Positions 30,401-55,050 of a DNA stretch of 64,000 nt are shown here, piece after piece. The notes under the pieces are model-generated. The model was not told the origin of the DNA. It did no database searches and saw nothing but the letters and a program-made list of their open reading frames with translations. The DNA lies in IMG/VR virus record IMGVR_UViG_3300046535_001869, positions 32,001-96,000 of that record; one strand, 5' to 3'. Position 1 is the stretch's first letter; each line of letters begins with the position of its first letter. This DNA comes from a virus. Position numbers and translations under genes: made by a program.

Positions 30401-30490
30401 CTTACCGGTGATGGCGACGTCGACGGTCTTCCATTCGATCTGGTCCTCGATGGGACGGTCAGTGGTCGTATATAGGCGGGTTATCTTCAC
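27455..30490 (-). CDS. nrdJ: class II (adenosylcobalamin-dependent) ribonucleotide reductase
   Basis: PNSPQWFNTG, QPHAC, TNPCAE, CNLASL, IAPTGTIS, YRDGSK, C-terminal TSCPD-like and Zn-ribbon domains; start uncertain (GTG 30490). Confidence 0.93.
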   Translation of the reverse strand: MKITRLYTTTDRPIEDQIEWKTVDVAITGKVAQVPRVEVPARWSQNAANILADKYLRKAGVPSETIDSVKDIDHSLPFWLRPREPHSGTNRTITYGPETSARQIFNRMAGAWTYWGWREGYFKVLGADADKIGEEDARAFYDELYYMLAMQIAVPNSPQWFNTGLHWAYGIAGPDSGMWRVGKEHKVTDDGWPIADRVYNSYENPQPHACFLTPTRDDLVNEGGIMDTWVREARIFKHGSGSGVNPSTWRALHEPLSGGGRASGVMSWLAIGDRAAGAIQSGGTTRRAAKMVCLDDDHPELLEFIRWKVREEGKAAAMDVGSQVLRLKYGGFAPIGIDIPQPMIDRLENGFEPEALPATWESEAMRTIDGQNSNNSVRVTDAFMRSAEGHKPWNLIARTTGEVAKIVNAGEVWNEICRAAWASADPGLLFHDTINSWHTTAADGPIRTTNPCAEFHSNDGSACNLASLRLTAFLNDDGSIDLDRYEHACRLWTMVLDISVSMASFPAREFAEGAYNYRTLGLGYADLGGLLMRLALPYDSDEGRALAAALTALMTGVAYRTSAELAEELGPFPRWEANVASFYGVMHKHREAVDFVSCEGQAGRIVDRSIYVWEHVLEAKSFRNAQTTLIAPTGTISFVMDCDTTGCEPDYALVKDKQLAGGGTMVIVNQAVPMALGRLGFDERDTRDAINWISEAGTLDGWPGIYRAPTLTLRVFHCVADLRPMAHVLMVAALQPHLSGAASKTVNLPNDATVEDVSGVYREAWRLGVKAIALYRDGSKLTQPLAAAKPKIAQTSGETDFLTDPKRRYSVVADTVFSRNEREALTPRARGYRQKFKLDGHSVYLHTGEYPDGRLAEIFTEMSKEGSTVRSLVNGFAKAISIGLQYGVPLDEFVDAFVHTKFEPAGIVEGHERIRLAQSLFDLIFRDVAIHYLGREELANVPAVEAAVGVEEIHRKISEFVESRPPVALAAWVNVARKAELDECPDCHNLSLVRTGTCRTCTRCSYNEGCG

Positions 30491-30512
30491 GCGTGTTCTC
30501 CTAACTTCAGTA

Positions 30513-30701
30513 TCACTCCACCCTCCCACCGGCGTACAGGCCGAGGTCGAGGAGCCCGCGGAGCGTCTCGCGTGCAGCGTCGTCTTCGACGATCCGGTAT
30601 CCGTTGAGCTTGATCGGCACCGCCCCGGCGGTCAGTCGGAAGATCACCGGGCCGACGTCGCGGACGGTTAGTTCTCGGCCGGTGGAGTAGATGAGCTTCA
30701 C
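30513..30701 (-). CDS. hypothetical protein
   Basis: GTGA-coupled start. Confidence 0.5.
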   Translation of the reverse strand: MKLIYSTGRELTVRDVGPVIFRLTAGAVPIKLNGYRIVEDDAARETLRGLLDLGLYAGGRVE

Positions 30702-32821: not shown

Positions 32822-33111
32822 CCTTCAAGCCTCGCGCGCTCGTCCTCGGTCAGCAGATGCCACAGGCGGAAGCGAACGACGCGCCAATCGTTGATCAGTC
32901 GATCGGATTTCGACCGTTCAACCAGCTGGTTCCAGTACCACCGCGCCGACTCCAGACTGTGCTCGGGCGACTTGTCGCGCCGAAGGTACTTCAGGACGTT
33001 CCCAGCGGCGAACGCGGGACCCCAGTCGGTCTTCTCGACTATAGTATCCCAGACCTGGCGGCCCTCGCCGTAGTGGGTCTGGCGGACGGTCTCGTCGACG
33101 CGGGCGGTCAT
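32818..33111 (-). CDS. DUF3310-like protein
   Basis: HY...FAAGNVLKYLRR..K...LESARWY. Confidence 0.7.
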   Translation of the reverse strand: MTARVDETVRQTHYGEGRQVWDTIVEKTDWGPAFAAGNVLKYLRRDKSPEHSLESARWYWNQLVERSKSDRLINDWRVVRFRLWHLLTEDERARLEG

Positions 33112-33449
33112 CGTTCGGCCTCCAGTTGCGCGATCCGCTCGCGCGCCTTGAAGTGCGAGCGACCTATGACCCCGACGACGTCGAAGCCGGCGCAGCGGAC
33201 TAGGAGCGTCCAGTACGCGAAAACGTCGGACAATTCGTCCTTGAGCAGCTCACGGTCGATCTTGTCGCCGCGCCACTGCTTCTTGATGAAGTTCGCGACC
33301 TCACCCGCCTCGCCTGCGAGAGCCAGCGCGAGGAATCGCTCGTCCTCGATCGAGCCAGCGACGTTCCCGGACCGCGCGATGAACCGGTGGTGAAGGTCCC
33401 ACAGGTCACGATCGACGTCGTTGATCAGGTCCTTACCGTCCGATGGCAT
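33108..33449 (-). CDS. MazG-like NTP pyrophosphohydrolase
   Basis: LAGEAGEVANFIKK...DELSDVFAY. Confidence 0.8.
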   Translation of the reverse strand: MPSDGKDLINDVDRDLWDLHHRFIARSGNVAGSIEDERFLALALAGEAGEVANFIKKQWRGDKIDRELLKDELSDVFAYWTLLVRCAGFDVVGVIGRSHFKARERIAQLEAER

Positions 33450-38314: not shown

Positions 38315-38491
38315 ATGCACCTACATCTGTGGGACGAATCTTTAGCAGATCAGCCAGAGGCCTATGTAACTACCATGGTCGAATGCGATCTTAGACCTAA
38401 CGAAATTTATGTGGGCGACCATATCCAGTGGATTGGTGAGATCGTAATTAATGGTAAAACATACCACGTTGAGCTGCGACAACACGTCTAA
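38315..38491 (+). CDS. 58 aa hypothetical protein (not in the ORF track)
   Basis: MHLHLWDESLADQPEAYV...ELRQHV; its stop overlaps the polymerase stop. Confidence 0.5.
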   Translation: MHLHLWDESLADQPEAYVTTMVECDLRPNEIYVGDHIQWIGEIVINGKTYHVELRQHV

Positions 38492-40542
38492 ACCGTCTCA
38501 CCCCAGTTCGCCCCGCGTTCCCAGTCGACCTTCATTGGGACGGTAAGCTTTACTGTGGTCTCCATAATGTGCCGGGCCTCGACCGCCGCTTTATCCGCGG
38601 CGGCCGACCTGGGCACGGAGTAGTCAAGTTCATCATGGATTGTTAGGAGCGGTGCTCCCAGCACGCTACAAACACCGCTTTTCCAGATATCTAGCATCGC
38701 CTTCTTTAGGATATCAGCGGCCGATCCCTGTAGAATCCGGTTTAGCCCAGCGTGGCAGAACGCACGGCGAATATTGTTCCCATAGGTCTCGGTCGCCCGT
38801 TCTTTGAGCATCATACGCGATTTGCGGTCGGCTTTGCTCTCGCCGCGTTGTTGTCGCAGGTTGGGTTCCCAGAGTGTGAATCGCTGGCGGCGACCCAAGA
38901 GAGTCCTTACGTGACCCCGGTCCTCGGCTGTCTGCATGGCGATAATACCGAGCTGGCGCACGAACGGTAGCTTCGCGTCGTATTTTCGGGAGAATGACCG
39001 GGCTTCCTCAAGCGAAATCCCAGCGGTTGCCGCAATTTTGTCATCCCCTCCCATGTAGACTCGACAAAAATTAACATTCTTGACCCGTTTGCGGAGAAAC
39101 TTGTCGTGAGGATCTATACCAATCATTTCAGCCGTCATATTATGAAAATCAGTTGACGGATCATCAATGTAGGCCTGTCGTGCGTCCTCCGCCCCTGCAA
39201 GAATGTTCTGGGTACCGGGATATTTGGTTAAGGATGCAAAATGAGTTAAAACTCTATATTCGATCTGCGACTCGTCATGTCTTTCAAAGATCTCGCCAAC
39301 TTCCGGTTCGAAGATTGATCGTGTTAGCGGACCCAATTCTTCATCCCGCGCTGGCTGGTTCTGGAGGTTGGGGCGACTGGAGGCGAAACGGGCCATCGTC
39401 CCACCCGACTCACCCTTTAGTTGCGGGAACTCGGCATAGATTCGGCCCCTAACATTGTGCTTCAAGATGTTTCCGGTGTAGGTATTGATAATCTTGTCGA
39501 CCCGACGACCGGCCTGGATCGCATCGACCAACGCATCTTTACCTTGGAATAAAGCAAGCCAGGGCTTAGTGACGGAGAGCTTGCCCTTCTTGGAGGTCCT
39601 GGGAACCTGAAGACCACGGTCCAGTAGCGCCTGGGCAAAGCTGTCCGGGGCCATAAGTTCCGCGGCCTTGTTATTGGAGAGGCGGCGGACCTCGCCCAGC
39701 CAGCGGTCGCGCTGTTTGATCATCTCCTGGTTAACGGTCTCAGCGCGCTCGACATTAACTGGGACACCACGAAGCCGCATTGCCAACATTAATGGCAGTA
39801 GGCCACGCTCGAGATCGTAGACCTCCCGTAAACCTTCCGCATCGATGATTGCTAGTTGTTTCTCTAGAATCCGTAAGGGCAAGTCAACGTCACCCTCACC
39901 ATATTCACCAACAAATCGTGCTGGTGCCCGCCAGAGGTTGCCCTTAATTTGCTTCTCTGTTGTCCACCCGTTCGCCGCACCCCAGGAGTAGAGCATCTCG
40001 TGGCGCTTGCTTTCGCCGAGATGATACTCAGCGACATCATCCATCGAATAACCGTGCGGGCGCCATTCATCAACTAATGGTTCGGCTAACAGGATATCGT
40101 GAAATCCTTTGGCATTGCGGAATGTGACGTCCCACTCCGGCATCGCCATGAACTCGAGGTCGTAGAGCAGATGGGCGCCGACGACTTCCCCGTCGAAGGC
40201 GTTTAGTTCGTCGTACGCCCAGGCATGCACTGCACCAGCATCCATATTCCCACCGCCCTCGTGGCGGACAGGGAAATACCAGCGCTGTCCATCATCGGTT
40301 CCAACCGCCAGGCCGACCACGTAGGAGCCGCGGCGTGTGCCAGGCCCTAGAGACAGGAGGTCGTCGTCCCGTGTCTCCACGTCAAACGATATACGCTTAA
40401 TACCGCGGTTGCGTAGCGTGGGGAGCCCTGTCGGGGCTGTCCAGCTGCATTCCGGTAGGGCGCGCGGGCCGTATGTTACTGGGACCCGTTGTTTTGGCTG
40501 GACCTGCCAAAACATACCGACGTCGTCATCGAAGGCAGACAT
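38488..40542 (-). CDS. family A DNA polymerase with 3'-5' exonuclease
   Basis: Exo FDVET and YGEGD; motif A DESQIEYR; motif B RKRVKNVNF...Y; motif C IHDEL. Confidence 0.93.
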   Translation of the reverse strand: MSAFDDDVGMFWQVQPKQRVPVTYGPRALPECSWTAPTGLPTLRNRGIKRISFDVETRDDDLLSLGPGTRRGSYVVGLAVGTDDGQRWYFPVRHEGGGNMDAGAVHAWAYDELNAFDGEVVGAHLLYDLEFMAMPEWDVTFRNAKGFHDILLAEPLVDEWRPHGYSMDDVAEYHLGESKRHEMLYSWGAANGWTTEKQIKGNLWRAPARFVGEYGEGDVDLPLRILEKQLAIIDAEGLREVYDLERGLLPLMLAMRLRGVPVNVERAETVNQEMIKQRDRWLGEVRRLSNNKAAELMAPDSFAQALLDRGLQVPRTSKKGKLSVTKPWLALFQGKDALVDAIQAGRRVDKIINTYTGNILKHNVRGRIYAEFPQLKGESGGTMARFASSRPNLQNQPARDEELGPLTRSIFEPEVGEIFERHDESQIEYRVLTHFASLTKYPGTQNILAGAEDARQAYIDDPSTDFHNMTAEMIGIDPHDKFLRKRVKNVNFCRVYMGGDDKIAATAGISLEEARSFSRKYDAKLPFVRQLGIIAMQTAEDRGHVRTLLGRRQRFTLWEPNLRQQRGESKADRKSRMMLKERATETYGNNIRRAFCHAGLNRILQGSAADILKKAMLDIWKSGVCSVLGAPLLTIHDELDYSVPRSAAADKAAVEARHIMETTVKLTVPMKVDWERGANWGETV

Positions 40543-41247
40543 TTATGGTACGCCCCAAATTTTGTGCATTTGCATTCCGGCAATATAACCGTGTCTCATT
40601 GCCATGCGCACCACTTCTCGTTCGTTCGCCTTAGTCAGAACGGTATCCAACTCATCGCACGGGCTGAGGTAGACCGGTGCACCTGGGCGTGGACGGGCGA
40701 TAGTTGACCGTTGGCCTTGGCGCTGGGTCGACATGACAGGTAATCCGTCGTTCTCGGCGTTTTGACCCTGACGGATGATGTATTTGAATGCCGCTGCATG
40801 TAGATATATCTTTGAATTGATTTTTGGCGTCTTTGGTGAGACAACGATGGAGACATCATCGTGTAATAAGATATCTTGCCAGATGGTTCCGGCTGTTTCA
40901 AATTGAATACGGGTGCGGCCGTTGCCAAGCTTGAATAGTGCGGGGACCAGGAGGCTCATATCTTGGCGCAGCGGTTCGCCGCCGGTGATGACGTAGAGAC
41001 GACAGGTGTCAGTTTGGACTTGTCGTACTTTATTGATAATTTCATCGACGGACAGGTAAGGGTCGGTCTCGTCTCCCCACTCAGTATCGCAGAAGGCGCA
41101 CTTCAGATTGCATCCAGTTAAACGTATGAATACCGCGGGCCAACCAGCGTAAATTGATTCTCCTTGCAGTGTCATAAAAATTTCCCGCACCTGGAGCTTA
41201 CTGTCGTCTCGATATTCTCTATGACGTATCGGGTTCTGTCCGAGCAC
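40543..41247 (-). CDS. queE: 7-carboxy-7-deazaguanine synthase (radical SAM)
   Basis: EIFMTLQGE, FIRLTGCNLKCAFCDT, ITGGEP, VSPK, QMHK. Confidence 0.92.
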   Translation of the reverse strand: MLGQNPIRHREYRDDSKLQVREIFMTLQGESIYAGWPAVFIRLTGCNLKCAFCDTEWGDETDPYLSVDEIINKVRQVQTDTCRLYVITGGEPLRQDMSLLVPALFKLGNGRTRIQFETAGTIWQDILLHDDVSIVVSPKTPKINSKIYLHAAAFKYIIRQGQNAENDGLPVMSTQRQGQRSTIARPRPGAPVYLSPCDELDTVLTKANEREVVRMAMRHGYIAGMQMHKIWGVP

Positions 41248-42207
41248 CTAGCGCCTCCCAATAATAAACCCGCGCAGCCCAGGTGCGGCGAACGCCGTTG
41301 GATTCGGGTACTTGTCCGGCTCCCAGTGTGTTGCGTTCTTAATCACCGCATCGAGAAATTGTGAGGCCCATAAGGACCGCTCCTCCACCGGCACCGGGGT
41401 CAACGGTATCTCGTGCTCGACCTCGCTTGCATCGCGATGTCCAACAAGCTTGGTTGCATGGACTTCAACGACACTCTCGGTCATCTCCGACACAAATTCA
41501 TATGCCTCGCGCCATTCATTCGTAATAGCCCACTCGGGTTTCTTGTAATTCTCGAAGAGCTTTAGACCAGTCGTGGGGAACTCATCATTAATGAGTTGGG
41601 TCCGCATCCACGAATTATCGTCCCACTTGAAGGCCGCATAGTTTGGATAAAGCTGCCATCCAATGAGGTTGCCGTCCTTGCGGGATAAGAGATAGTCGAC
41701 GGCCCAGCAAGGTAAGAGATGCCCAGCACCGTCGAGGCTTGGACAATCGACCTGGGCCAGGCTGACGTTTGTCGTCGCAACAAACGAATCACGACCGATG
41801 CAGGCACAGAGCGCCCAGGGGTGAATCGCGTTGTCGGAGATAAATGGACGAATCAATGCGAGTGCAGTCAAGAAGTTTGGCGGTAGGGGATTCCAGGTGT
41901 CACCCGGCTGGGCATATTCGACATCGTTTGCCGGTAGAGTCTTGATTGTACCGTGCATACGCCGGGAGCGCAGCGTAATGCTACCGTCGCCGATTTGCAC
42001 TGACTCGATAGAGGGGAGCCGATTGATAAGCCGCTCGAACTCACGACCCGGGACCGCGAATGTCCCGTCGCACGGAATAGGCGCGCAGGCCGTATATCGG
42101 CCGTCACCCGCGGTAATGGTGCCATCGCGTACAAGGTATTGTGTCATTGAGGCTACAATATCCTGGCGCGATAGGGCCTTACGGACTTTGTCGAGCGATT
42201 CTTTCAT
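41248..42207 (-). CDS. DNA polymerase sliding-clamp (beta)-like protein
   Basis: AGDG, FAVPGREF and PFISDNA..PWA; lies next to the polymerase module. Confidence 0.6.
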   Translation of the reverse strand: MKESLDKVRKALSRQDIVASMTQYLVRDGTITAGDGRYTACAPIPCDGTFAVPGREFERLINRLPSIESVQIGDGSITLRSRRMHGTIKTLPANDVEYAQPGDTWNPLPPNFLTALALIRPFISDNAIHPWALCACIGRDSFVATTNVSLAQVDCPSLDGAGHLLPCWAVDYLLSRKDGNLIGWQLYPNYAAFKWDDNSWMRTQLINDEFPTTGLKLFENYKKPEWAITNEWREAYEFVSEMTESVVEVHATKLVGHRDASEVEHEIPLTPVPVEERSLWASQFLDAVIKNATHWEPDKYPNPTAFAAPGLRGFIIGRR

Positions 42208-43166
42208 TATGCGACCAGGAGCGGCTGGACTTCGGTGAACCGGTCGACACCGAGGTCCTCGAGACCTTGGTAGGTTGCAGCATTTACGACGTCACGAAAC
42301 GTGTAATGAGTCGCGAGCTGTTCAGCGGTAACACCAAACTCCCCGAGCCACTGATCAACAACACATCGCGACTCTAGAGGAAGGGTTCGATAATGCCAAC
42401 CATTGAAACTACGGGCCTGTGGCGACTCCTCGGAAAAAACTACCTTGCGGAGCTTGTTATTAACGCGAAATAAACAGGCGCCGAAGATTCCTGTCATAAG
42501 CCAGGAGGATGAGTCTACAGAGTGCCAGGGGTACCGGAACATGAGCTGCATGTCCGTTAAACCGAATCCATGGGTTCGGACTTTTGGTGACCCATTTTGG
42601 TTGGTAAGATACTTCATCCAGAGCCAGTCAAGCCGTTGCATTAGCCATTTCGTAGTCTCGGGTACCATTCCTCCTATGAAGATATAATCTTCACCGTCGT
42701 CAATATACTTCTGAAGCCATTCGTCTGGCTCGCGTACATGGAAGACCGGTTTGACCGGGGCGCCTAGTTTAAGAAGGGTCTGGTAATTAGCGTATGTGGC
42801 GCTGGCTGATTCCTCACCGGAACCAATAGCATCGAGCGCGGAATAGACTGTAAAGATCTGGCGTGGTAGGCAACGGCGAATGTACCGGGCATACTCCTCA
42901 ATCGGTATCTCATTGCCTTTGGTAAAGGCCGTGAAAGCTCCGGAATCTAGAAATAAATCCCAACCGAAATCAATCGAGTCTCCTATCGCAGCGCTGAGAC
43001 CGTTGGGGAGTTTTTCGAAGTTTGAGCCGGAAAAACCGTGGTAGAAGAAACTGAACAGGCGGCGCTTAACATACTTGGTCCAGACGCCTGCGGCCGTGTC
43101 TCCACCACTGAGGCGAGATATGGCGGTGGCGGTGGCGGCGCGTTCGCCGGCCAGGTAGATCTTCAT
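42207..43166 (-). CDS. dpdA: DpdA-like DNA 7-deazaguanine transglycosylase (TGT fold)
   Basis: FLDSGAF, LD.IG, PVFH, IGGMV, HGFG, SVDSSSW; embedded among the que genes; start ATG 43166. Confidence 0.8.
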   Translation of the reverse strand: MKIYLAGERAATATAISRLSGGDTAAGVWTKYVKRRLFSFFYHGFSGSNFEKLPNGLSAAIGDSIDFGWDLFLDSGAFTAFTKGNEIPIEEYARYIRRCLPRQIFTVYSALDAIGSGEESASATYANYQTLLKLGAPVKPVFHVREPDEWLQKYIDDGEDYIFIGGMVPETTKWLMQRLDWLWMKYLTNQNGSPKVRTHGFGLTDMQLMFRYPWHSVDSSSWLMTGIFGACLFRVNNKLRKVVFSEESPQARSFNGWHYRTLPLESRCVVDQWLGEFGVTAEQLATHYTFRDVVNAATYQGLEDLGVDRFTEVQPLLVA

Positions 43167-43552
43167 CGTTTGATAAACTCGCAGGCAGCCTCGAGCGAGT
43201 CGAAGAACTTCCAAGTGTGACAGACGAGCCAGGGAGAGCGCGGTGCACCGCTGACGTCAATGGTGTAAACCGGTATTTGAAGTTCCACCGAGGCCATACG
43301 AATTTCCATTGCAGAGCCTACGCTCGGCCTGTCGAAATAGGCCAAGAGGGCCGAGGAATTACGGATATCTTCCTCATCCGCTGACACGATTTGGCCGGCC
43401 ATCCCCGGTTCCTGCTCGCGTCCGCGGTAGTCACGCCGAATGGGGTCGAGGACCGGGATGGGCGCGAGGAGCTGGGCTGCGCGCTGGCGCCACTCGACAC
43501 AGTCTTGGTCGGAGCGGCCCTGGATTGGGCCGCAAAGGTACACCGGCCTCAT
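43163..43552 (-). CDS. nucleoside 2-deoxyribosyltransferase / nucleotide N-glycosidase-like protein
   Basis: VYLCGPI...WR...LDP...D..DI...SVGSAME. Confidence 0.75.
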   Translation of the reverse strand: MRPVYLCGPIQGRSDQDCVEWRQRAAQLLAPIPVLDPIRRDYRGREQEPGMAGQIVSADEEDIRNSSALLAYFDRPSVGSAMEIRMASVELQIPVYTIDVSGAPRSPWLVCHTWKFFDSLEAACEFIKR

Positions 43553-44421
43553 TTGCGGAGCGCCATGAATTCGGCCCTCGCCCGTGCGTCGTCATAGAGT
43601 GCACCGCGCAAGGCGCTGGTCGTCGTCGGAGTGTTTGGTGCATGGACACCGCGTGATTCCATACACATATGACGGCATTCGATGATGACACCAACGCCGA
43701 CCGGTGTCAGATGTTCCATTAGCGCGTCGGCAATTTCATTTGTCAAACGCTCCTGTACCTGTAGTCGCTTAGCGAATACGTTGGTCAAACGGACCAGCTT
43801 GGATAGGCCGATGATTTTCCCATCTGGGATATAACCAATGGTCGCGGTTCCAAAGAAAGGAATAAGATGGTGTTCGCACGTTGAGTAAACTGGGATACCG
43901 CGCATAACGACGAGCTCGTTAACCCGGTCGGCTCCGTCCTCAAATGTCTTGAGGACGTCTGCTGGCGACTGGCCGTAACCGCTACATGCCTCAGCCCAGG
44001 CCTTTACCACACGCGTCGGTGTTTGTCGCAGGCCTTCACGCGTCGGATCCTCTCCGATAAACTGGAGGAGGCGTACCACGGCGTCCTCGGCCGAGGCGTC
44101 GTGTTCCTCGGTGGTTTCCCACGGCATGACAAGCCACTGTCCGGCGTACTCGGGTGTGCGTTTGTCGAAAAGGACGCCGAATCGAATTCCTTCGTACCTC
44201 GCGGCAGTGCGCCCACTATCCCAGATATCGTCGACGACCACGTCGGCCGCACTGAGGCTGTCGACGAGCTCGGCACCGGTAAGGGCGCCGATGGCCAAGG
44301 CGACCGGTACCCCGCCACGTGGCACGCCCCAGATACGCGTCCTACTGCCAATCTGGAGACGGTCGGCGAGTTGGCGTGCCGCTGCCAAGACCTCGGCCGG
44401 AGTAATGAGACGTTGGGTCAT
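43549..44421 (-). CDS. folE: purine phosphoribosyltransferase-like domain fused to GTP cyclohydrolase I
   Basis: N-terminal GVPRGG, VVDDIWDSGRT, WLVMPWE; C-terminal REGLRQTP.RV, CEHHLIPF, GLSKL.R, LQVQERLT, HMCM..RG. Confidence 0.9.
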   Translation of the reverse strand: MTQRLITPAEVLAAARQLADRLQIGSRTRIWGVPRGGVPVALAIGALTGAELVDSLSAADVVVDDIWDSGRTAARYEGIRFGVLFDKRTPEYAGQWLVMPWETTEEHDASAEDAVVRLLQFIGEDPTREGLRQTPTRVVKAWAEACSGYGQSPADVLKTFEDGADRVNELVVMRGIPVYSTCEHHLIPFFGTATIGYIPDGKIIGLSKLVRLTNVFAKRLQVQERLTNEIADALMEHLTPVGVGVIIECRHMCMESRGVHAPNTPTTTSALRGALYDDARARAEFMALRK

Positions 44422-44993
44422 TGTGCAGCCTGCTGCCAAGTTAGATTATGAATAATATTATAAATAGTACTTTCGTGAACATTATATCGATTCGCGAGTG
44501 CTCGAACTCCATTCTTTCTTGACCATGGAGTACAATTGTCTCTTATGAACTCAATTTCTATTTGAGTTAATTTTCCGGACTTAACAAATTCGCCGTAAGT
44601 TGTCCGTCTACCGTTGCGTACTGCATCTTGAATATTTTCTTTCTGGGTTCCCCAGATAAGATTATCTAGACGATTATTCTCAACATTATCATCTATATGA
44701 CGGGCTTTGTTTCGCCGATCGTCAGGAGGTGGTCCGACAAAGGTGAATAGGATTAGACGCGCTGCTGAAATTTTTGCCGCTCGTCCACTATCATGCAATG
44801 ATATAAATGTACGCCTATAAGGTGGAGGCAAAGACGGTGAAAAGTTCTCCGACGCAGTCTTAGAGGAATAGTATTGTACGTTCACAACCAAATCGTGTGC
44901 CGGACGATTAGAGCACGCAAGTTTACGGAAATGGCCTAAATTACTAGCCTCGTGGTTTGGCCAGTCGGGTATTTGTCTCCACTCCTCTGTCAT
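44418..44993 (-). CDS. NUMOD4-HNH homing endonuclease
   Basis: EEWRQIPDWPNHEASNLG, RHIDDNVENNRLDNLIWGTQKEN, C-terminal HTH; AT-rich. Confidence 0.85.
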   Translation of the reverse strand: MTEEWRQIPDWPNHEASNLGHFRKLACSNRPAHDLVVNVQYYSSKTASENFSPSLPPPYRRTFISLHDSGRAAKISAARLILFTFVGPPPDDRRNKARHIDDNVENNRLDNLIWGTQKENIQDAVRNGRRTTYGEFVKSGKLTQIEIEFIRDNCTPWSRKNGVRALANRYNVHESTIYNIIHNLTWQQAAQ

Positions 44994-45676
44994 TTTGCGT
45001 ACTCGGTTGGATCGTTTACTCCTGCACGAATAAATGCCTCTCGACGCGCACGGCATGTCGGACACACGCCACAATGCAGATCGCCACCGGCATAACAGGA
45101 CCATGTCATATGGTAAGGAGTTCCGAGCTCTGCACCCATCTTAATAATTTGATCTTTTGTCATAAACTGCCAAGGGACATTCAGCTGAACGCGATGGTAT
45201 GTCCCAACATCAATGGCATTGGCCATCGCACCAGTGAATTGAAATGTGCAGTCTGGGTATGCGCTCCGCTCCGCGTCCTCGGCATGCGCTCCAAAGTAGA
45301 TAATCGCATTGACGCCGTCGATTAGCGTTCCCTGGATATGGGAGGCCAGGACCGAGAGCATAAGACCATTTCGAAATGGAACATAGGTCGGACTGATCCC
45401 ATGGGGGAGGTCCGCGTACGATACGGACGGGATTTCGCGTGAGGAGTCGGTTAGCATTGTCTTGGGAACAATCGAATCGAGTGTAATGACCGAGTGCGGA
45501 CGACCATAGAAGTTCGCCACCCGTTGGGCGTGCTCGATCTCCTTACTGTGGCGCTGACCATAGTTGATACTTATAGTCCGAACGGCCTGCTGGCCAAGGT
45601 TTCGGACCGCCAGCGACACGGCAGTTGAGGAGTCGATGCCGCCGGATAAAAGAACGTAGCCCAGGGTGATGGTCAT
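44990..45676 (-). CDS. queC: 7-cyano-7-deazaguanine (preQ0) synthase
   Basis: LSGGIDS, YGQRH..E, TYVPFRN, YPDC, TWSCY...CGVCPTC. Confidence 0.95.
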   Translation of the reverse strand: MTITLGYVLLSGGIDSSTAVSLAVRNLGQQAVRTISINYGQRHSKEIEHAQRVANFYGRPHSVITLDSIVPKTMLTDSSREIPSVSYADLPHGISPTYVPFRNGLMLSVLASHIQGTLIDGVNAIIYFGAHAEDAERSAYPDCTFQFTGAMANAIDVGTYHRVQLNVPWQFMTKDQIIKMGAELGTPYHMTWSCYAGGDLHCGVCPTCRARREAFIRAGVNDPTEYAK

Positions 45677-45772
45677 GATGCTCCCTTTTCGCTAAGGTAG
45701 ACGCCGGCCTTTCTTCCCACTGTGGCCGGCAACAGTGCGTCAAAGATAGAAGTGGAGGGAGTAGAACCACCG

Positions 45773-46213
45773 CTACCCGGAAGCTGGATAGTCTGACCAA
45801 CAATTAACGGTTTCGTAGACACGTAGCCGGGCGAGCGAGGCCAGGCCTTTACTCCGGCGCTCCACCTCGGGTGCTAATTGATTAAACCAGAGACGCGCCA
45901 AGTTCTCGGCGGTTGGAATACTCGGGATAATCTGGAGCTTCCCGCAGCACTCGCGAAACTGCGAAAGTAATGGGTCGTCCGACCAAACGATCATTGCATG
46001 ATCAAATGGTTCGTCTATTACAGACATCATCTCATCTTTGAGAAAACCAAAATCAAGGACCATCCCGGCCTGGCTGCCCTCCTCTTGTAAGGCGCCGACA
46101 CAGGTGGCCTGAATCGTATACCGATGACCGTGGACGTTACAGCATTTTGATTCGTGATCGGGAACACGGTGTGCTGCATCGATACTAATTTCACGGGTAA
46201 TATGATGGAGCAC
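45773..46213 (-). CDS. queD: 6-carboxytetrahydropterin synthase
   Basis: AAHR..HESKC.NVHGHRY, GMVLDF, FDH, PTAEN, ET; start GTG 46213. Confidence 0.92.
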   Translation of the reverse strand: MLHHITREISIDAAHRVPDHESKCCNVHGHRYTIQATCVGALQEEGSQAGMVLDFGFLKDEMMSVIDEPFDHAMIVWSDDPLLSQFRECCGKLQIIPSIPTAENLARLWFNQLAPEVERRSKGLASLARLRVYETVNCWSDYPASG

Positions 46214-46249
46214 GGTAGGTCTCCCTGGATAACATATTGACGAAACACA

Positions 46250-46278
46250 ATAGTACCGGTAAATAGACGAAAAGTAAA
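46250..46278 (-). promoter_or_regulatory. phage promoter, copy 8 (TTTACT-17-TACTAT), driving the que/dpdA/pol operon
   Basis: Repeat-family match. Confidence 0.8.
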
Positions 46279-46300
46279 GGCCCCTGGTGGGGCCTTTACT
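46269..46300 (-). terminator. intrinsic terminator overlapping the -35 of promoter copy 8
   Basis: AGTAAAGGCCCC-ACCA-GGGGCCTTTACT followed by TTT. Confidence 0.65.
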
Positions 46301-46327
46301 CATTGTTGTGCTCGATGTCGTGTGGGG

Positions 46328-47157: not shown

Positions 47158-48030
47158 TTAGAATGGTACCTCATCCGAGGAGGCGCGTTGGGTGTCGGTG
47201 CCGCCCTCAGCCGAGGCCTGGAAGTTGGCGCGGGCCTGACCCGAACGGACCAGCTCGGAGAAGGACTTGGCCGTCGCATAGAGCGGCTCGTTCTGGCGGA
47301 TCAGCGACTCGCGGGCGGTCGGGGCGGCCAGCTCGAACTGGAAGTTGTAGAACGGCTGGCCCTGGCTATTCTTCTGGCCAACCGAGGTCAGCCGCCAGCG
47401 GTGCGCCCAGATCGGCGGGGTCACGACCCGGCCGTTGACCGGGTACTTCAGGGAGCCGATCCGGGTGAATAGCTTCTTGTAAACCCCGATCTTGGTGCTG
47501 GTGAACGCGATGACGACCTGCTCGGCCGAGGTCTCGTCGAGCGGAGGGGGTGCGACGAGCGCGAAGAGGTTGAACTGCTCGACGAGCTCTGTCCCCTCGC
47601 CGGTGTCGAGCGGCTTGAAGCGGCCCTGCTGGCGGATCAGGCGCTGGACGCGCTCGTCGTCCGGGCCGACGACGCCGCGGAACCCGCCGCCCTGGGTGCG
47701 CGGGACCCACTCGCCGTAGAGGTAGTCGCGCGCGACCGGGACCACGTCGAGGCCGGTGTGGCCGTCGTAGAGCTGGCCGGTCATCGTGTTGACGAACATG
47801 CCGGGCTTAGCAGCCTCGTTATAGACCGGTCCCGAGGGGTCGGCGACCTGCGGGCTAAGGGCCTGGATCAGGCCAAGGAACGGTGTCAGCAGCTCCTCGG
47901 AACGGGCGCCCTCCATCCCAGCGCCGGCATCGTCGCCGAAGTCGACTATTTCGAGATCGGTGCCCGGCCCCAGATTGGCCGGGGTCAGCGGTGGCTTCTC
48001 GTCCTGTTGCTTGCGTCTCGCGTCGCTCAT
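47158..48030 (-). CDS. putative single-stranded DNA-binding protein
   Basis: PFLGLIQALSPQV, EWVPR..GGGF; acidic C-terminus SSDEVPF; located in the replication module. Confidence 0.65.
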   Translation of the reverse strand: MSDARRKQQDEKPPLTPANLGPGTDLEIVDFGDDAGAGMEGARSEELLTPFLGLIQALSPQVADPSGPVYNEAAKPGMFVNTMTGQLYDGHTGLDVVPVARDYLYGEWVPRTQGGGFRGVVGPDDERVQRLIRQQGRFKPLDTGEGTELVEQFNLFALVAPPPLDETSAEQVVIAFTSTKIGVYKKLFTRIGSLKYPVNGRVVTPPIWAHRWRLTSVGQKNSQGQPFYNFQFELAAPTARESLIRQNEPLYATAKSFSELVRSGQARANFQASAEGGTDTQRASSDEVPF

Positions 48031-51381: not shown

Positions 51382-53625
51382 TTAGAACGGGGTCTCGTCG
51401 TGATCGTTTTGTAAGTGGTTCGCGGTTGGAGCATCGTTATACGATACTTCAACTGTTCCGTCGATCGGATCACGGTAGACGTAGATATCTTTATGGCGAT
51501 CCTCCCAGGTATCGCCTTTGACAAAACACCGGGATGGTGGTCCTTTACCGGTGGCAATTCTTTGAACAACTCGCTCCCAGCCCAGCTCCAACATGGCCTC
51601 GGTCAGCCGTCCATTATCCGGGCTACCACGTTGATGTTCTGGTTTGTTAATAATTTTCCAAACGTCGTTAGATGTGATGCATCCGCATGGCGTGTCAAAG
51701 AGTTTCGGCAGTAGTATATCTGTCCATGGATCGCCTTGGCGGACCGCATCTTGCACGACGGCCGCCTCATCCCACAGTGTCGGGTCGAGGCGAATCGAAG
51801 TGCCTAGAGATTCTAGGTACGCTGCCTCAGCCCACAAGGCCTCTCGCGCCGCACGTAGCGCGGCGATATCAAAACGGAGGACGTAGATCGGCCAGAATCG
51901 CCTATTGGTGCGGTCGCGTAGGAAAGCGGTCGAATTTGTGGTTCCGAAGAAAACACATTGGCGCGGGGCGTTGGTTGGATGATGACCATAGGCGAGGCGC
52001 GCCCGATCTACCTGCCGGCTTAGAATTGATTTGATGGTCTCGACATCAGACTGATGAATACCTTGGAGCTCTGCACATTCGACGATCCAGCGGCCGGAGA
52101 GTTGCTCGATAGTTTTCTTCTCGTCGGCTTTGAGGGGAAAGCTGTCGGTAAACCAATCCTCATTCACCGCCAGGGTACTGAGCGCGAGTGACTTCTCCGT
52201 CCCTTGGATAGGGCTAATTAAAACCATCATTTCATCAAACTTACAACCAGGGTTGCGGACGCGGCGGACAGCAGCCAGGAGTATAAGGCGGGACGTGGCC
52301 CTAATAAACGGGGTATCCTTAGCCCCAGCAAAGCGAATAAGCCATTCCTCGGTTAAATTCTGGGTAGTGCTGGGGTCGTGTAGGGGAAGGGCGTTAAAAT
52401 AGTCTAGGACTGGATGGTAGGCCGCCTGACGGGCGATGGTTGATGTAGTGATGTTTAAGATATCGCGGGTTGGCAGAAATCCGAATCTTTCATACGTATT
52501 CACCCGGATCTCGGCCTCTGTTGGATCATCGAGACAACGTGCCGGGCCTACGCCGTTAACATAGGAGCGGTCCTGGAAAACGTTGTGACTTAATTTGATT
52601 CCCATATCGTTGAGCGCCTTGCGAACGTTCTTGGGCGATAGTGGGTCGATACTACCGTGCGATGTCCTTTCCCAGTCGATTGCAACTACATGGCGGGCGC
52701 GCTCTACTTGGCGGCGGGCGACCGCTGTTGGATTTGGTTGAGATAGGCAATGTGCTGCAATCCCACACGATGGATCAATTAGGATGGGGATGATATCGCC
52801 ATCAGGCCAACCACGTCGTATCAGCGCTGTTACTACGGCGAACACTAGACGGGAACGGTCATCATTGTAGTCAGATGCATCACCAGTTTTTATGGCCTTC
52901 TGAAGTTTTACGGGAAGGCTACCAACCGATGGGTGCACCTTTTCATCATCGGCCGTATGCGCACCCTCGGGAAGATGGGGGACTGGATCACTCTCGTATG
53001 ACCATGTTCGGTCCCAATTTGTTTCAACGATAGCCGCTAATGCCGGAACACGGCCGCGGGCCAGCTTGGCGCTGGAGGGAAGATTGATGGTACCGGGAAG
53101 CCTCATCAGCCGGTTGATGTTCTGGACCGCATCCGAACCCAGGTCCCGTGCGATCGCCTTTCCTGAGGCCTCGATACGCTCGAGGTTATTATCCTCGTGA
53201 GCAATTAGCGGACCGGCGAATCGCCAAAACGCCTGGTAACCACCGCCAGAGAATATAATAGCGGTCGGTGGTGGCTCGAGGAGCTTTAACCGCGATAGGA
53301 GACGTGTGAAGTTTTCCTCGGTTGGCAGAGAGAAAGGTCCGGACTTTGGTAAGTCCAGGTCGACATAGATTGCCCAAATAGCTTTGATCTGATCTTTGGT
53401 TGGTGTAGTTCTTGGCGCGCCCTCGATGATGTTTGGGACAAAATACAGGTTGACGATACCGTTTCGGTCGTCAAGATATTCTTGTAGCGGCTGTTCTTCA
53501 GTGAATCGACGGGCTGGTACTAGAGGGTTCTCGACGGAGGGATCGATCTCGACTACGAGCCAGGGGCCACTAGGACCGTGCCAGGCCTTTAGCCATTTGA
53601 CGGCTGTCTGGGTGTCTGGTGCCAT
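51382..53625 (-). CDS. primase-helicase (RepB-like AEP primase plus VirE-family helicase)
   Basis: YVDLD, FSGGGYQAFW, RLMRLPGTIN; PGCKFD, QGTEKS, WIVECAEL, GTTN...RRFWP. Confidence 0.85.
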   Translation of the reverse strand: MAPDTQTAVKWLKAWHGPSGPWLVVEIDPSVENPLVPARRFTEEQPLQEYLDDRNGIVNLYFVPNIIEGAPRTTPTKDQIKAIWAIYVDLDLPKSGPFSLPTEENFTRLLSRLKLLEPPPTAIIFSGGGYQAFWRFAGPLIAHEDNNLERIEASGKAIARDLGSDAVQNINRLMRLPGTINLPSSAKLARGRVPALAAIVETNWDRTWSYESDPVPHLPEGAHTADDEKVHPSVGSLPVKLQKAIKTGDASDYNDDRSRLVFAVVTALIRRGWPDGDIIPILIDPSCGIAAHCLSQPNPTAVARRQVERARHVVAIDWERTSHGSIDPLSPKNVRKALNDMGIKLSHNVFQDRSYVNGVGPARCLDDPTEAEIRVNTYERFGFLPTRDILNITTSTIARQAAYHPVLDYFNALPLHDPSTTQNLTEEWLIRFAGAKDTPFIRATSRLILLAAVRRVRNPGCKFDEMMVLISPIQGTEKSLALSTLAVNEDWFTDSFPLKADEKKTIEQLSGRWIVECAELQGIHQSDVETIKSILSRQVDRARLAYGHHPTNAPRQCVFFGTTNSTAFLRDRTNRRFWPIYVLRFDIAALRAAREALWAEAAYLESLGTSIRLDPTLWDEAAVVQDAVRQGDPWTDILLPKLFDTPCGCITSNDVWKIINKPEHQRGSPDNGRLTEAMLELGWERVVQRIATGKGPPSRCFVKGDTWEDRHKDIYVYRDPIDGTVEVSYNDAPTANHLQNDHDETPF

Positions 53626-54441: not shown

Positions 54442-55050
54442 ATGATAGATCTTGATCTACCGTGGCGCGCTCTTGGTATTCAGCCCAGATCCGAGATTGC
54501 TGTATCGGGATTCATTAGTGATCTCGATTTTATTTGTTATTGTCCGAGTTATAAGATGGTCATGGTTCACCGTGGTAAGAAACGCGAAACAGTTGTTCCG
54601 TTTATTCATTCTTATATTTTTGTCAGATTTGGCTTTGATGCTATAACGTGGCATCAGATGATGAATATTGTTGGGGTCAATCGGATACTTCTTGGTCGAG
54701 TTGCTGAGGAGGAAATTTTGCAGTTGCGTCATCAGGTTGGTGATGGAACTGGGGTGCTCAGTTATGAGGTGAGAAAGATTTTTCGGAGGATTAATGTCGG
54801 CGATCGAATAACCCTGTGCAATGGGGTATTCGCAGGAACAGATGGCGTTGTCGAAACTGTCGATGATGAGCTCCAGGTCGGGGGTATAAATATCTCTTTA
54901 CTTGGTCGAGAGATCGTGGTAAACCAACCTCTGGCTTGGTGTGAGAAGAGTGCTCCGGCCACTGATGGTGGACCTGGAACCCGCTCCCGTAAGCGCCATA
55001 GGAATGGTCGTTTACGAAGTCCTTATGTGAATCTTGGTTCACAGGCTTAA
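54442..55050 (+). CDS. NusG/RfaH-family transcription antiterminator
   Basis: NGN PFIHSYIFVRF; KOW VGDRITLCNGVFAGTDGVV...LLGRE; first gene of the late arm. Confidence 0.8.
   Translation: MIDLDLPWRALGIQPRSEIAVSGFISDLDFICYCPSYKMVMVHRGKKRETVVPFIHSYIFVRFGFDAITWHQMMNIVGVNRILLGRVAEEEILQLRHQVGDGTGVLSYEVRKIFRRINVGDRITLCNGVFAGTDGVVETVDDELQVGGINISLLGREIVVNQPLAWCEKSAPATDGGPGTRSRKRHRNGRLRSPYVNLGSQA

What the first reader, a model, noticed from the sequence alone, without database searches (positions are those of the whole stretch)
43163..44421. PRTase-FolE fusion plus an NDT-like enzyme inside the 7-deazaguanine cluster
Seen: FolE has an N-terminal domain of about 105 aa with GVPRGG, the PRPP-binding loop VVDDIWDSGRT and WLVMPWE, resembling Gpt-type purine PRTases. 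The next gene is nucleoside 2-deoxyribosyltransferase-like and is translationally coupled to dpdA. Established: DpdA swaps guanine in DNA for a 7-deazaguanine base and releases free guanine, while FolE consumes GTP. Inference A: the PRTase salvages the excised guanine back towards GTP, forming a closed loop. Inference B: the PRTase and/or NDT make preQ0 (deoxy)nucleotides, giving a second, pre-replicative route through NrdJ and the phage polymerase. Inference C: the NDT-like enzyme removes such nucleotides from the pool.
Basis: partly seen in the sequence, partly recalled or inferred. Interest (0 to 1): 0.7.

Follow-up and report, generated by a model that had tools for sequence, protein, structure and literature searches.

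The report
Two helper enzymes for deazaguanine DNA
In this phage's operon for swapping guanine in its DNA for a 7-deazaguanine base, the first pathway enzyme carries a stripped-down guanine-salvage domain, and the next gene belongs to a small sugar-base exchange enzyme family that, across uncultured viruses, sits beside the DNA base-swapping enzyme and a deazaguanine importer; no paper I could find describes either link.

Summary
Both observations are real. The folE gene (43549-44421, 290 aa) starts with a roughly 105-aa loop-less domain related to Gpt, a purine phosphoribosyltransferase (PRT). The supporting numbers are AF2 pLDDT 93, top PDB matches E. coli and Yersinia XGPRT, and hhalign 98.4% to E. 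coli Gpt. The next gene (43163-43552, 129 aa) has the nucleoside deoxyribosyltransferase (NDT) fold and resembles DNPH1. ATGA overlaps couple queC, HNH, PRT-folE, the NDT-like gene and dpdA.

This scan has already found the PRT-FolE fusion on at least seven other genomes. Here, 76 of 80 viral loci with the mini-PRT also hold folE, 63 of them as fusions. One relative is fused to the unrelated FolE2.

The new result concerns the NDT-like family. In 52 of 80 viral loci it lies with dpdA, directly adjacent in 45 and in either gene order. Thirteen loci add a YhhQ-type preQ0 transporter gene, and YhhQ-NDT fusion proteins exist. The family keeps the residue pattern of DmtZ, a phage enzyme that acts on dNMPs (NAR 2026).

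Best reading: the PRT recycles excised guanine towards GTP, and the NDT-like enzyme exchanges the base of dGMP-type nucleotides with preQ0. Neither substrate is shown. I call this a new variant of a known system.

The parts
44107..44421 (-). Mini-PRT domain of the fusion protein (residues 1 to about 105). It is loop-less and Gpt-like, with PRGG 34-37, D64 D65, D68, S69-G70-x-T72, K87, W96 and PWE 100-102.
43549..44106 (-). GTP cyclohydrolase I (FolE) domain of the same protein, plus the stop codon. The Pfam match covers residues 112-288.
   Evidence: PF01227, 229 bits; phrog_2197.
43163..43552 (-). NDT-superfamily enzyme of 129 aa, resembling DNPH1 and DmtZ. The family-invariant residues are Y5, P9, W21, R22, P37, D41, Y42, R43, D59, S77, G79, E83, S106, P107 and W108.
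   Evidence: The record's own gene call (P0169, 79 aa) is truncated; 132-aa relatives cover 99% of the 129-aa ORF.
42207..43166 (-). DpdA, the DNA guanine/7-deazaguanine transglycosylase (319 aa). Its ATG overlaps the NDT-like stop codon (ATGA).
   Evidence: phrog_887, E 9e-45..
44418..44993 (-). HNH/NUMOD4 homing-type endonuclease inserted between queC and folE, with ATGA overlaps at both ends.
44990..45676 (-). QueC (preQ0 synthase).
   Evidence: PF06508, E 2.5e-49.
45773..46303 (-). QueD (CPH4 synthase). The true start codon may lie inside this ORF.
   Evidence: PF01242, E 1e-30.
40543..41247 (-). QueE (radical-SAM CDG synthase).
   Evidence: PF04055.
41248..42207 (-). Sliding-clamp-like processivity factor, lying between dpdA and queE.
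   Evidence: phrog_947, E 8e-27.
38488..40542 (-). Family A DNA polymerase at the end of the same gene string.
   Evidence: PF00476, E 5e-51.

Best explanation

(1) The N-terminal domain of FolE is a minimal 6-oxopurine phosphoribosyltransferase. It most likely converts guanine plus PRPP into GMP. Host kinases would then turn GMP into GTP, the substrate of FolE. In this way the guanine that DpdA cuts out of DNA is removed as a competitor and reused to make the next preQ0.

(2) The NDT-like protein uses a covalent Glu-deoxyribosyl mechanism and has a pocket suited to a 5'-phosphate, like DNPH1 and the phage enzyme DmtZ. It most likely takes dGMP (or another dNMP) as donor and a 7-deazaguanine base (preQ0) as acceptor. 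The products would be dPreQ0 monophosphate and free guanine. That would be a nucleotide-level counterpart of the exchange DpdA performs on DNA.

Shown here: the folds, the conserved residues, the gene coupling, the co-occurrence and the fusions. Inferred: both substrates, the direction of the NDT-like reaction, and whether the product reaches DNA.
For: PRT domain:
- Fold and profile matches point to Gpt.
- Residues are near-invariant across 149 cluster representatives: PRGG, the DD pair, D68 (139/149, aligned with Gpt D92), K87 (121/149, aligned with Gpt K115), W96 (aligned with Gpt W134) and PWE.
- At least 418 50%-identity clusters exist.
- 58 of 149 representatives carry FolE, and one (P0137) carries the analogous FolE2.
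- Of 80 viral loci, 76 have folE: 63 are fused, and in 13 the genes are separate, with gaps of 3-25 nt in seven.
- The same conserved motifs occur in phages that make different final bases: phiST, CP220 and immuto_2-6A.

NDT-like protein:
- Pfam match and fold. The best profile matches to solved structures are Rcl/DNPH1, though weakly.
- Ser77 sits six residues before the Glu nucleophile, where DNPH1 has its phosphate-binding Ser87 (PMC3834327).
- A motif-by-motif map onto DmtZ gives Y6/Y5, P57/P37, N77/D59, E103/E83 and W124/W108 (PMC12884076).
- 52 of 80 viral loci hold dpdA. In 45 it is adjacent on the same strand, 23 downstream and 22 upstream.
- 13 loci add a YhhQ-family gene; all five tested pass the Pfam cut-off.
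- Two divergent YhhQ-NDT fusion proteins exist, plus one fusion to a weak DUF6884 (DpdC-type) match (PMC12235509).
- Cultured phages ZHS and Erebus carry the gene inside their que/dpdA clusters.
Against: - No substrate is shown for either enzyme.
- The PRT lacks the flexible catalytic loop (Gpt residues about 60-82), so it may be slow, may need a partner, or may not be catalytic.
- The product GMP is three steps away from GTP, and the phage has no guanylate kinase.
- PRTs that act on preQ0 or CDG are known in toyocamycin and tubercidin pathways (bioRxiv 10.64898/2026.04.15.718813). Standalone mini-PRTs also sit in the phages known to replace every G.
- hhalign of the NDT-like family against DmtZ is not significant overall, and the profile matches to DNPH1 are weak (E about 0.01).
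- A large bacterial clade of the same NDT-like family, mostly in PVC-group MAGs, has no dpdA nearby (1 of 80). The basic activity may therefore be a general dNMP glycosidase.
- A dPreQ0 monophosphate route would need kinases and a polymerase that accept it.
Confidence: 0.42

Rival explanations
1. The mini-PRT is a 7-deazaguanine phosphoribosyltransferase. It would join preQ0 or CDG to PRPP, as ToyH and TubC do in toyocamycin and tubercidin synthesis. The ribonucleotide would then pass through the phage ribonucleotide reductase and kinases to a modified dGTP that the polymerase inserts, giving a pre-replicative route.
For: PRTs are standard parts of 7-deazapurine nucleoside gene clusters (bioRxiv 10.64898/2026.04.15.718813). 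Standalone family members occur in Cellulophaga phiST, Campylobacter CP220 and Flavobacterium immuto_2-6A. PMC10516641 reports that G is fully replaced in phiST and immuto_2-6A, and PMC10484667 reports the same for the Campylobacter Firehammervirus phages. 30 of 80 mini-PRT loci show no dpdA within 10 kb. The phage encodes an RNR.
Against: The domain keeps the Asp that contacts purine N7 in 6-oxopurine PRTs, an atom that 7-deazapurines lack (the residue's role is from my own knowledge). It pairs specifically with FolE and FolE2, not with QueC or QueE, which make the bases. Its base-side residues do not vary among phages that make different 7-substituents. 50 of 80 loci do hold dpdA.
Confidence: 0.25
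2. The NDT-like enzyme is a plain dNMP N-glycosidase like DNPH1. It would hydrolyse dGMP to guanine and deoxyribose 5-phosphate, feeding guanine to salvage and lowering dGTP, with no transfer to preQ0.
For: Ser77 at the DNPH1 Ser87 position, and the best profile matches are Rcl/DNPH1. DNPH1 has its lowest Km for dGMP among the canonical dNMPs (PMC3834327). The bacterial clade has no deazaguanine context. A MazG-like gene in the phage could supply dNMPs.
Against: It does not explain the fusions to a preQ0 transporter and to a DpdC-like domain, nor the DpdA-NDT-YhhQ cassettes in phages that have no que genes. Pro37 is invariant at the position where PMC12884076 reports a Pro conserved in transferases and absent from hydrolases.
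Confidence: 0.2
3. The NDT-like enzyme is a salvage glycosidase. It would free a 7-deazaguanine base from salvaged deoxynucleosides or deoxynucleotides so that DpdA can use it.
For: It occurs in cassettes with a Q-precursor transporter and DpdA in phages that cannot make preQ0. Known Q salvage pathways do include nucleoside hydrolases (PMC11130926 abstract; own knowledge).
Against: Enzymes of this class activate a purine leaving group through N7, which 7-deazapurines lack (own knowledge). There is no obvious source of such nucleotides in an infected cell. The gene is also kept in phages with a full preQ0 pathway, such as this one.
Confidence: 0.1
4. The PRT-like domain does not catalyse a reaction. 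It would be a ligand-binding module for GMP, PRPP or (p)ppGpp that regulates FolE or helps it assemble.
For: The catalytic flexible loop is missing. Purine PRTs are known (p)ppGpp binders, and a ppGpp-bound PRT-like protein appears among the fold matches (5vog; PMC6783271).
Against: The Mg-PRPP and PPi motifs and the base-contact residues are almost invariant. Many relatives are free-standing genes rather than domains. The same domain is fused to the unrelated FolE2.
Confidence: 0.08

Closest known systems
E. coli / Yersinia xanthine-guanine phosphoribosyltransferase Gpt (XGPRT; PDB 1NUL, 1A95, 4JLS, 6KP5)
   Same: Type I PRT core fold. The PPi loop (SRGG in Gpt, PRGG here) and the PRPP loop (DDLVDTGGT in Gpt, DDIWDSGRT here) correspond. 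The Asp, Lys and Trp of the purine site align, and both end in a (W)xxxPW(D/E) motif. hhalign gives 98.4% probability.
   Different: About 105 aa instead of 152. The flexible loop (Gpt residues about 60-82) and part of the hood are missing. Sequence identity is only 21-28%. The domain is fused to, or encoded next to, FolE in phage deazaguanine clusters. Activity is untested.
ToyH / TubC-type phosphoribosyltransferases of toyocamycin and tubercidin biosynthesis
   Same: A PRT encoded together with FolE, QueD and QueE homologues in a 7-deazapurine pathway.
   Different: Those enzymes ribosylate preQ0 or CDG to make free nucleoside antibiotics in actinomycetes.
DmtZ of Z-genome phages (Gordonia phage Ghobes gp53; NAR 2026, PMC12884076)
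   Same: A small phage NDT-family enzyme in a DNA base-replacement system. It shares the Tyr/Asp(Asn)/Glu triad, an uncharged small residue in the 5'-phosphate pocket, a conserved Pro and a lid Trp, in the same order and with similar spacing.
   Different: Overall sequence similarity is not significant. DmtZ acts on dAMP and the Z base. The position of its adenine-reading Asp12 is Asn or Gln here (52 of 60 sequences). This family also has its own invariant W21-R22 and R40-D41-Y42-R43 motifs and is linked to dpdA, not purZ.
DNPH1 / Rcl (2'-deoxynucleoside 5'-phosphate N-hydrolase 1)
   Same: Fold match with TMq up to 0.78. It is the best profile match among solved structures. The YxCGxI start, the PS(L/V)G...E motif with the phosphate-binding Ser, and the catalytic Glu are shared.
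   Different: The profile E-value is only about 0.01. The SIRGG loop reads PI(N/Q)G(R/C) here. DNPH1 has no Pro at the position of Pro37. DNPH1 is a eukaryotic nucleotide-pool sanitiser.
Classical nucleoside 2'-deoxyribosyltransferases (Lactobacillus NDT/PDT; Desulfotalea NDT, PDB 7O62)
   Same: Fold match with TMq 0.80, passes Pfam PF05014, and has a covalent Glu nucleophile.
   Different: The Asp/Asn that hold the 5'-hydroxyl of a nucleoside are replaced by Ser, which points to a phosphorylated substrate.

Membership tests
Type I PRT, 6-oxopurine branch (Gpt/XGPRT) | PRT core fold | tested here: met
   AF2 pLDDT 93. The top Foldseek matches are XGPRT chains, E 5e-6.
Type I PRT, 6-oxopurine branch (Gpt/XGPRT) | PRPP-binding loop (acidic pair followed by xx-D-(S/T)-G-x-T) and PPi loop (x-R-G-G) | tested here: met
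   D64, D65, D68, S69, G70, T72 and P34-R35-G36-G37 are at least 86% conserved in 149 relatives (S69 128/149; the others 93% or more) and align with Gpt.
Type I PRT, 6-oxopurine branch (Gpt/XGPRT) | Purine-site residues: Asp near N7, Lys near O6, stacking aromatic | tested here: met
   D68, K87 and W96 align with Gpt D92, K115 and W134. The roles of these residues come from my own knowledge of the family.
Type I PRT, 6-oxopurine branch (Gpt/XGPRT) | Flexible catalytic loop that closes over the active site | tested here: not met
   Gpt residues about 60-82 have no counterpart in the family profile.
Type I PRT, 6-oxopurine branch (Gpt/XGPRT) | Pfam PF00156 gathering score | tested here: not met
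   14.9 bits against a 26.3 cut-off for this protein. 32 of 149 relatives hit at E<1e-3.
Type I PRT, 6-oxopurine branch (Gpt/XGPRT) | Guanine/xanthine + PRPP turnover | not testable with these tools
   Needs an enzyme assay.
GTP cyclohydrolase I (FolE, PF01227) | Pfam gathering score over the whole domain | tested here: met
   229 bits against a 27 cut-off, covering profile positions 2-177 of 179.
NDT superfamily (PF05014) | Pfam gathering score, fold, and the Tyr/Asp/Glu catalytic triad | tested here: met
   32.3 bits against a 28.8 cut-off. Foldseek matches NDT and DNPH1. Y5, D59 and E83 are invariant in 60 relatives.
Classical nucleoside-specific NDT | Asp/Asn that bind the 5'-OH of the deoxyribose | tested here: not met
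   The residue six positions before the Glu nucleophile is an invariant Ser77. PMC12884076 states that Asp/Asn at the 5' pocket mark the NDTs.
DNPH1/Rcl dNMP N-hydrolases | Ser in the PS(L/V)G motif that binds the 5'-phosphate | tested here: met
   S77 aligns with Rcl Ser87 (PMC3834327).
DNPH1/Rcl dNMP N-hydrolases | Second phosphate-binding Ser contributed by the partner subunit, and the SIRGG loop | tested here: inconclusive
   Invariant S106 is a candidate for the second Ser, but it lies outside the aligned stretch. The loop reads PIQGR here.
DmtZ-type phosphodeoxyribosyltransferases | Key residues reported for DmtZ (Tyr6, Pro57, Asn77, Glu103, Trp124, uncharged 5' pocket) | tested here: met
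   All have counterparts in the same order: Y5, P37, D59, E83, W108 and S77 (PMC12884076).
DmtZ-type phosphodeoxyribosyltransferases | Significant overall sequence relationship | tested here: not met
   hhalign gives 2.9% probability and aligns only the Glu motif.
DmtZ-type phosphodeoxyribosyltransferases | Transfer of deoxyribose 5-phosphate from a dNMP to a modified base | not testable with these tools
   Needs an enzyme assay.
DpdA (phage DNA transglycosylase) | Match to the phage DpdA family | tested here: met
   phrog_887, E 9e-45. Invariant D74, H199, S216, D218 and S219 in 47 relatives.

The most novel reading that the evidence does not exclude
Phages that modify guanine may run a second route that acts before DNA replication. 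In it, the DpdA-linked NDT-like enzyme would be a dGMP:preQ0 phosphodeoxyribosyltransferase, the G-side counterpart of DmtZ. It would convert the dGMP pool into dPreQ0MP for the phage polymerase encoded in the same operon. The loop-less Gpt domain would return every displaced guanine to FolE. In phages that cannot make preQ0, the DpdA-NDT-YhhQ cassette would then be a complete kit to import preQ0, load it onto nucleotides and insert it into DNA.
Probability: 0.3. Interest if true: 0.85.

Novelty: new variant of a known kind. Interest (0 to 1): 0.7.

Why it matters
The 7-deazaguanine DNA pathway is described as FolE, QueD, QueE and QueC plus DpdA. The field has left open whether undetected deoxyribosyltransferases or a modified-dGTP route exist (PMC6884629, Discussion).

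This work names two recurrent parts that the papers I could search do not discuss. The first is a guanine-type PRT tied to FolE. The second, new to this scan, is an NDT-family enzyme tied to DpdA and to the preQ0 transporter.

If the proposed activities hold, they would explain three things:
- How phages cope with the millimolar-scale release of poorly soluble guanine. This is my estimate: roughly 65,000 G per genome at about 60% G+C, a quarter replaced as in CAjan or Rosebush, and about 100 genomes per cell.
- How phages that encode only DpdA get enough base.
- Possibly how high replacement levels are reached.

Both enzymes are small and easy to assay, and they could be used to make deazaguanine nucleotides.

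Tried and rejected
- Megablast of the region against cultured phages found no match.
- phmmer of each protein alone against PDB sequences found nothing useful.
- Complex prediction of DpdA with the NDT-like protein gave no support (score 0.00). This is not evidence either way.
I took contexts from the search for related loci instead.
The dpdA base rate therefore comes from tblastn on cultured phages: 241 of 50,697 records, a lower bound.
- The 28 viral NDT-like loci without dpdA include five where the neighbour is phrog_15826, possibly a distant DpdA relative, and five with a dehydrogenase (phrog_9582) within about 1.6 kb of the gene. I found no other common theme.
- The bacterial loci have no conserved neighbour.
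- My DpdA profile did not detect the DpdA that the literature reports in Halorubrum virus HRTV-29, and found none in Moorella phage MTATph1.
- I considered the PRT domain as a mere N-terminal extension of FolE and rejected that reading, because free-standing homologues and a FolE2 fusion exist.
- Literature searches for PRT with DpdA, and for NDT with DpdA, found no paper that discusses either link.
- Rfam found nothing in the queD-queC spacer.
Full report
**Setting.** The window is part of a complete 109,299-bp uncultured virus record with terminal repeats. On the minus strand, a gene string runs queD, queC, an HNH endonuclease, folE, an NDT-like gene, dpdA, a clamp-like gene, queE and a family A DNA polymerase. 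Reading the junctions shows four-base ATGA start/stop overlaps at queC/HNH, HNH/folE, folE/NDT-like and NDT-like/dpdA. The real folE start is therefore the ATG at 44421 (290 aa, the same as the record's own protein P0001). The real dpdA start is the ATG at 43166. The coordinates of the finding are exact.

**The FolE extension.** Pfam places GTP cyclohydrolase I on residues 112-288. The first 110 residues alone give only a sub-threshold PF00156 hit on the PRPP loop and nothing in a plain sequence search of the PDB.

A full HMMER search of 1.84 billion cluster representatives found 418 relatives at E<=0.001. In them the motifs PRGG, hhhDD(I/L)xDSGxT and WxxFPWE are almost invariant. An AlphaFold2 model built on 87 relatives is confident (pLDDT 93). 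Its best solved-structure matches are E. coli and Yersinia xanthine-guanine PRT, followed by archaeal purine PRTs.

A profile comparison with E. coli Gpt, fetched from MG1655, gives 98.4% probability, E 1e-14 and 28% identity. The alignment pairs PRGG with SRGG and the two PRPP loops. It pairs D68 with D92, K87 with K115 and W96 with W134. It also shows that Gpt residues about 60-82, the flexible loop, are simply absent. The domain is therefore a real, minimal Gpt-type PRT. One defining feature of the family is not met, and catalytic competence is unproven.

**What the mini-PRT keeps company with.** Of 149 representatives, 58 also carry the FolE domain. One, P0137, carries the type IB enzyme FolE2 (PF02649, 200 bits) behind the same domain. 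That is an independent fusion to an enzyme with the same activity.

In 80 viral loci fetched with the family alignment:
- 76 have folE within 10 kb. In 63 it is in the same reading frame. In 13 it is a separate gene; in seven of those the gap is 3-25 nt.
- 73 have queE, 69 queD, 46 queC and 50 dpdA.
- None has the NDT-like gene.

Among cultured phages, the fused form is in PaMx25/NP1/JG054/Quinobequin-type Pseudomonas phages. It is also in Stenotrophomonas, Xanthomonas, Variovorax, Sphingomonas and Vibrio phages. In all of these it is annotated only as GTP cyclohydrolase. Free-standing relatives, annotated 'phosphoribosyl transferase', are in Flavobacterium phage immuto_2-6A, Cellulophaga phiST and Campylobacter CP220, CPt10 and CP21. 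In phiST and immuto_2-6A, PMC10516641 reports full replacement of G; PMC10484667 reports the same for the Campylobacter Firehammervirus phages.

Earlier follow-ups in this scan reached the same anatomy on at least seven other genomes. This half of the finding is therefore not new to the scan. None of the papers I could search mentions it.

**Role of the mini-PRT.** I favour guanine salvage, at about 55%, for four reasons:
- The base-side residues are those of 6-oxopurine PRTs, including the Asp that contacts N7, an atom absent from 7-deazapurines (residue role from my own knowledge).
- The partner is always the GTP-consuming first enzyme, in two unrelated forms.
- The residues do not change among phages that make different 7-substituents.
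- DpdA frees one guanine for each base it inserts.

The main rival, at about 25%, is a ToyH/TubC-type reaction on preQ0 or CDG. That is known chemistry in toyocamycin and tubercidin clusters. It fits the presence of the enzyme in phages that replace every G, and it fits the phage RNR. A non-catalytic ligand-binding role remains possible because the loop is missing.

**The NDT-like gene.** The record's own gene call covers only 79 aa (P0169). Relatives of about 132 aa at up to 71% identity cover the whole 129-aa ORF. The protein passes Pfam PF05014. The AF2 model (pLDDT 94) matches Desulfotalea NDT (TMq 0.80) and human DNPH1 (TMq 0.78) about equally.

The family alignment of 60 sequences is unusually tight. 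The invariant residues are Y5, G8, P9, I10, W21, R22, P37, D41, Y42, R43, D59, S77, G79, M82, E83, S106, P107 and W108. A profile search of PDB sequences ranks Rcl/DNPH1 first (E 0.008-0.017), ahead of NDTs. It aligns Y5, D59, S77 and E83 with the Rcl catalytic Tyr, Asp and Glu and with Ser87. PMC3834327 shows that Ser87 binds the 5'-phosphate. The pocket is therefore of the nucleotide type, not the nucleoside type.

**A direct precedent.** A 2026 paper (PMC12884076) describes DmtZ, an NDT-family enzyme of Z-genome phages. [quoted passage not shown] I located DmtZ as Ghobes gp53.

Overall profile similarity to the present family is not significant. Even so, every residue that paper singles out has a counterpart here, in the same order:
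- Tyr6 / Y5
- Pro57 / P37, the 'transferase' proline
- Asn77 / D59
- the uncharged 5' pocket / S77
- Glu103 / E83
- the lid Trp124 / W108

The adenine-reading Asp12 corresponds to Asn or Gln here (52 of 60 sequences). That would suit a 6-oxo base; this last point is inference.

**What the NDT-like gene keeps company with.** This is the new result. I fetched 80 viral loci with the family alignment. An iterative profile search started from the window's DpdA finds a DpdA relative in 52 of them. In 45 it is the immediate neighbour on the same strand, 23 times downstream and 22 times upstream. Only 14 of the 52 have any folE or que gene within 10 kb. Two of these calls were checked against PHROGs and are phrog_887. 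Five further loci have a phrog_15826 neighbour that may be a distant DpdA relative. For scale, a single-query tblastn finds dpdA in 241 of 50,697 cultured phage records.

Thirteen of the 80 loci also carry a small membrane protein of the YhhQ/Vut_1 family beside the NDT-like gene. The usual order is DpdA, NDT-like, YhhQ, and all five I tested pass the Pfam cut-off. YhhQ is the validated preQ0 transporter family (PMC12235509, which cites Zallot 2017; PMC11130926).

A search for longer relatives found two divergent proteins, P0287 and P0289, in which a YhhQ domain is fused to the NDT-like domain. It also found one, P0286, with a weak DUF6884 match in front (27.3 bits against a 30 cut-off). DUF6884 is the DpdC domain (PMC12235509).

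Among cultured viruses:
- Edwardsiella phage ZHS and Aminobacter phage Erebus have the gene inside their que/dpdA clusters.
- Halorubrum virus HRTV-29, genus Dpdavirus, has it. PMC8651126 reports that this virus encodes DpdA but no preQ0 genes.
- Moorella phage MTATph1 has it with no dpdA that I could detect.

In bacterial genomes the family forms a separate clade, mostly in PVC-group and allied MAGs. 76 of the 79 sequences in that clade are bacterial (support 0.74). Only 1 of 80 loci has dpdA nearby, and there is no conserved neighbour.

**Role of the NDT-like enzyme.** The associations link the phage branch to the 7-deazaguanine base itself: an importer of the base, an enzyme that inserts it, and an enzyme that edits it. 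The fold fixes the chemistry as making or breaking a deoxyribose-base bond through a Glu-bound intermediate. The Ser pocket points to 5'-phosphorylated substrates.

The simplest reaction that fits all of this is dGMP (or another dNMP) plus preQ0 giving dPreQ0MP plus guanine, as DmtZ does with dAMP and Z. I give this about 40-45%. Plain dGMP hydrolysis gets about 20%. Release of the base from salvaged nucleotides gets about 10%; it is disfavoured because 7-deazapurines are poor leaving groups, which is my own knowledge. Guanine scavenging onto dNMPs remains open.

The two accessories are independent of each other. They meet only in this phage lineage: the window, its close relative L005, and the contigs of P0003/P0165 and P0004/P0166.

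**Verdict.** Its removal idea is the weakest. The system is a known one (phage 7-deazaguanine DNA modification) with two accessory parts not described in the papers I could search, so I rate it a new variant of a known kind. The mechanisms are inferred, and simple enzyme assays would settle them.

Noticed in passing
window 58407-61421 (+): A 1004-aa protein joins a phage portal (PF06381) to a type IB topoisomerase (PF01028, PF21338). Another agent in this scan has already followed it up.
   Followed up: no
window 44418-44993 (-): An HNH/NUMOD4 homing-type endonuclease sits between queC and folE. It has ATGA overlaps at both ends, so it is translated as part of the modification operon.
   Followed up: partly
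window 43163-43552 (-): The record's own gene call for the NDT-like gene is only 79 aa (P0169, starting at Met51). Homologues support the 129-aa ORF, so automatic annotation would miss the N-terminal catalytic Tyr.
   Followed up: yes
window 45677-45772 (-): This is the only sizeable spacer in the operon (queD-queC), and other first-stage notes flag it as riboswitch-like. It has no Rfam match even at E<=1.
   Followed up: partly
P0137 (564 aa, metagenomic): The mini-PRT (residues 44-127) is fused, through a stretch of about 160 aa with no Pfam match, to FolE2/GCHY-1 (residues 290-557). This is an independent fusion to the analogous cyclohydrolase.
   Followed up: partly
loci L011, L019, L030, L032, L058 (next to the NDT-like gene): The neighbour is phrog_15826, 'unknown function', about 215-300 aa. 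It hits weakly in the DpdA profile search, and a true DpdA (L066) hits it weakly in return. It may be a divergent DpdA-like family.
   Followed up: partly
loci such as L023, L066, L078, L084: The DpdA proteins in the DpdA-NDT-YhhQ cassettes are short (about 225-250 aa). They lack the first 25-30 residues and part of the C-terminus of the roughly 300-aa DpdA found in full que clusters.
   Followed up: no
loci L171-L250 (bacterial MAGs): A chromosomal clade of the same NDT-like family (33-43% identity, same motifs) is widespread. It occurs in Verrucomicrobiota, Kiritimatiellia, Lentisphaerae, Planctomycetota, Hydrogenedentota and Omnitrophota. It has no dpdA and no conserved neighbour.
   Followed up: partly
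window 27455-30529 (-) and about 33108-33449 (-): The phage encodes a large ribonucleotide reductase (PF02867, E 9e-116) and a MazG-like pyrophosphohydrolase (27.7 bits). It has no guanylate kinase. These could bear on a nucleotide-level route.
   Followed up: partly
window 54442-55050 (+), 51382-53625 (-), 47158-48030 (-): A NusG-like protein lies just upstream of the small terminase gene. There is also a primase/VapE-type helicase and a Pam3 gp34-like protein.
   Followed up: no
L001 (Pseudomonas phage Baskent_P4_1), locus 6807-7727: A 920-bp stretch between the PRT-folE gene and the clamp gene carries no annotation in the deposited record. This is where dpdA lies in related phages.
   Followed up: no
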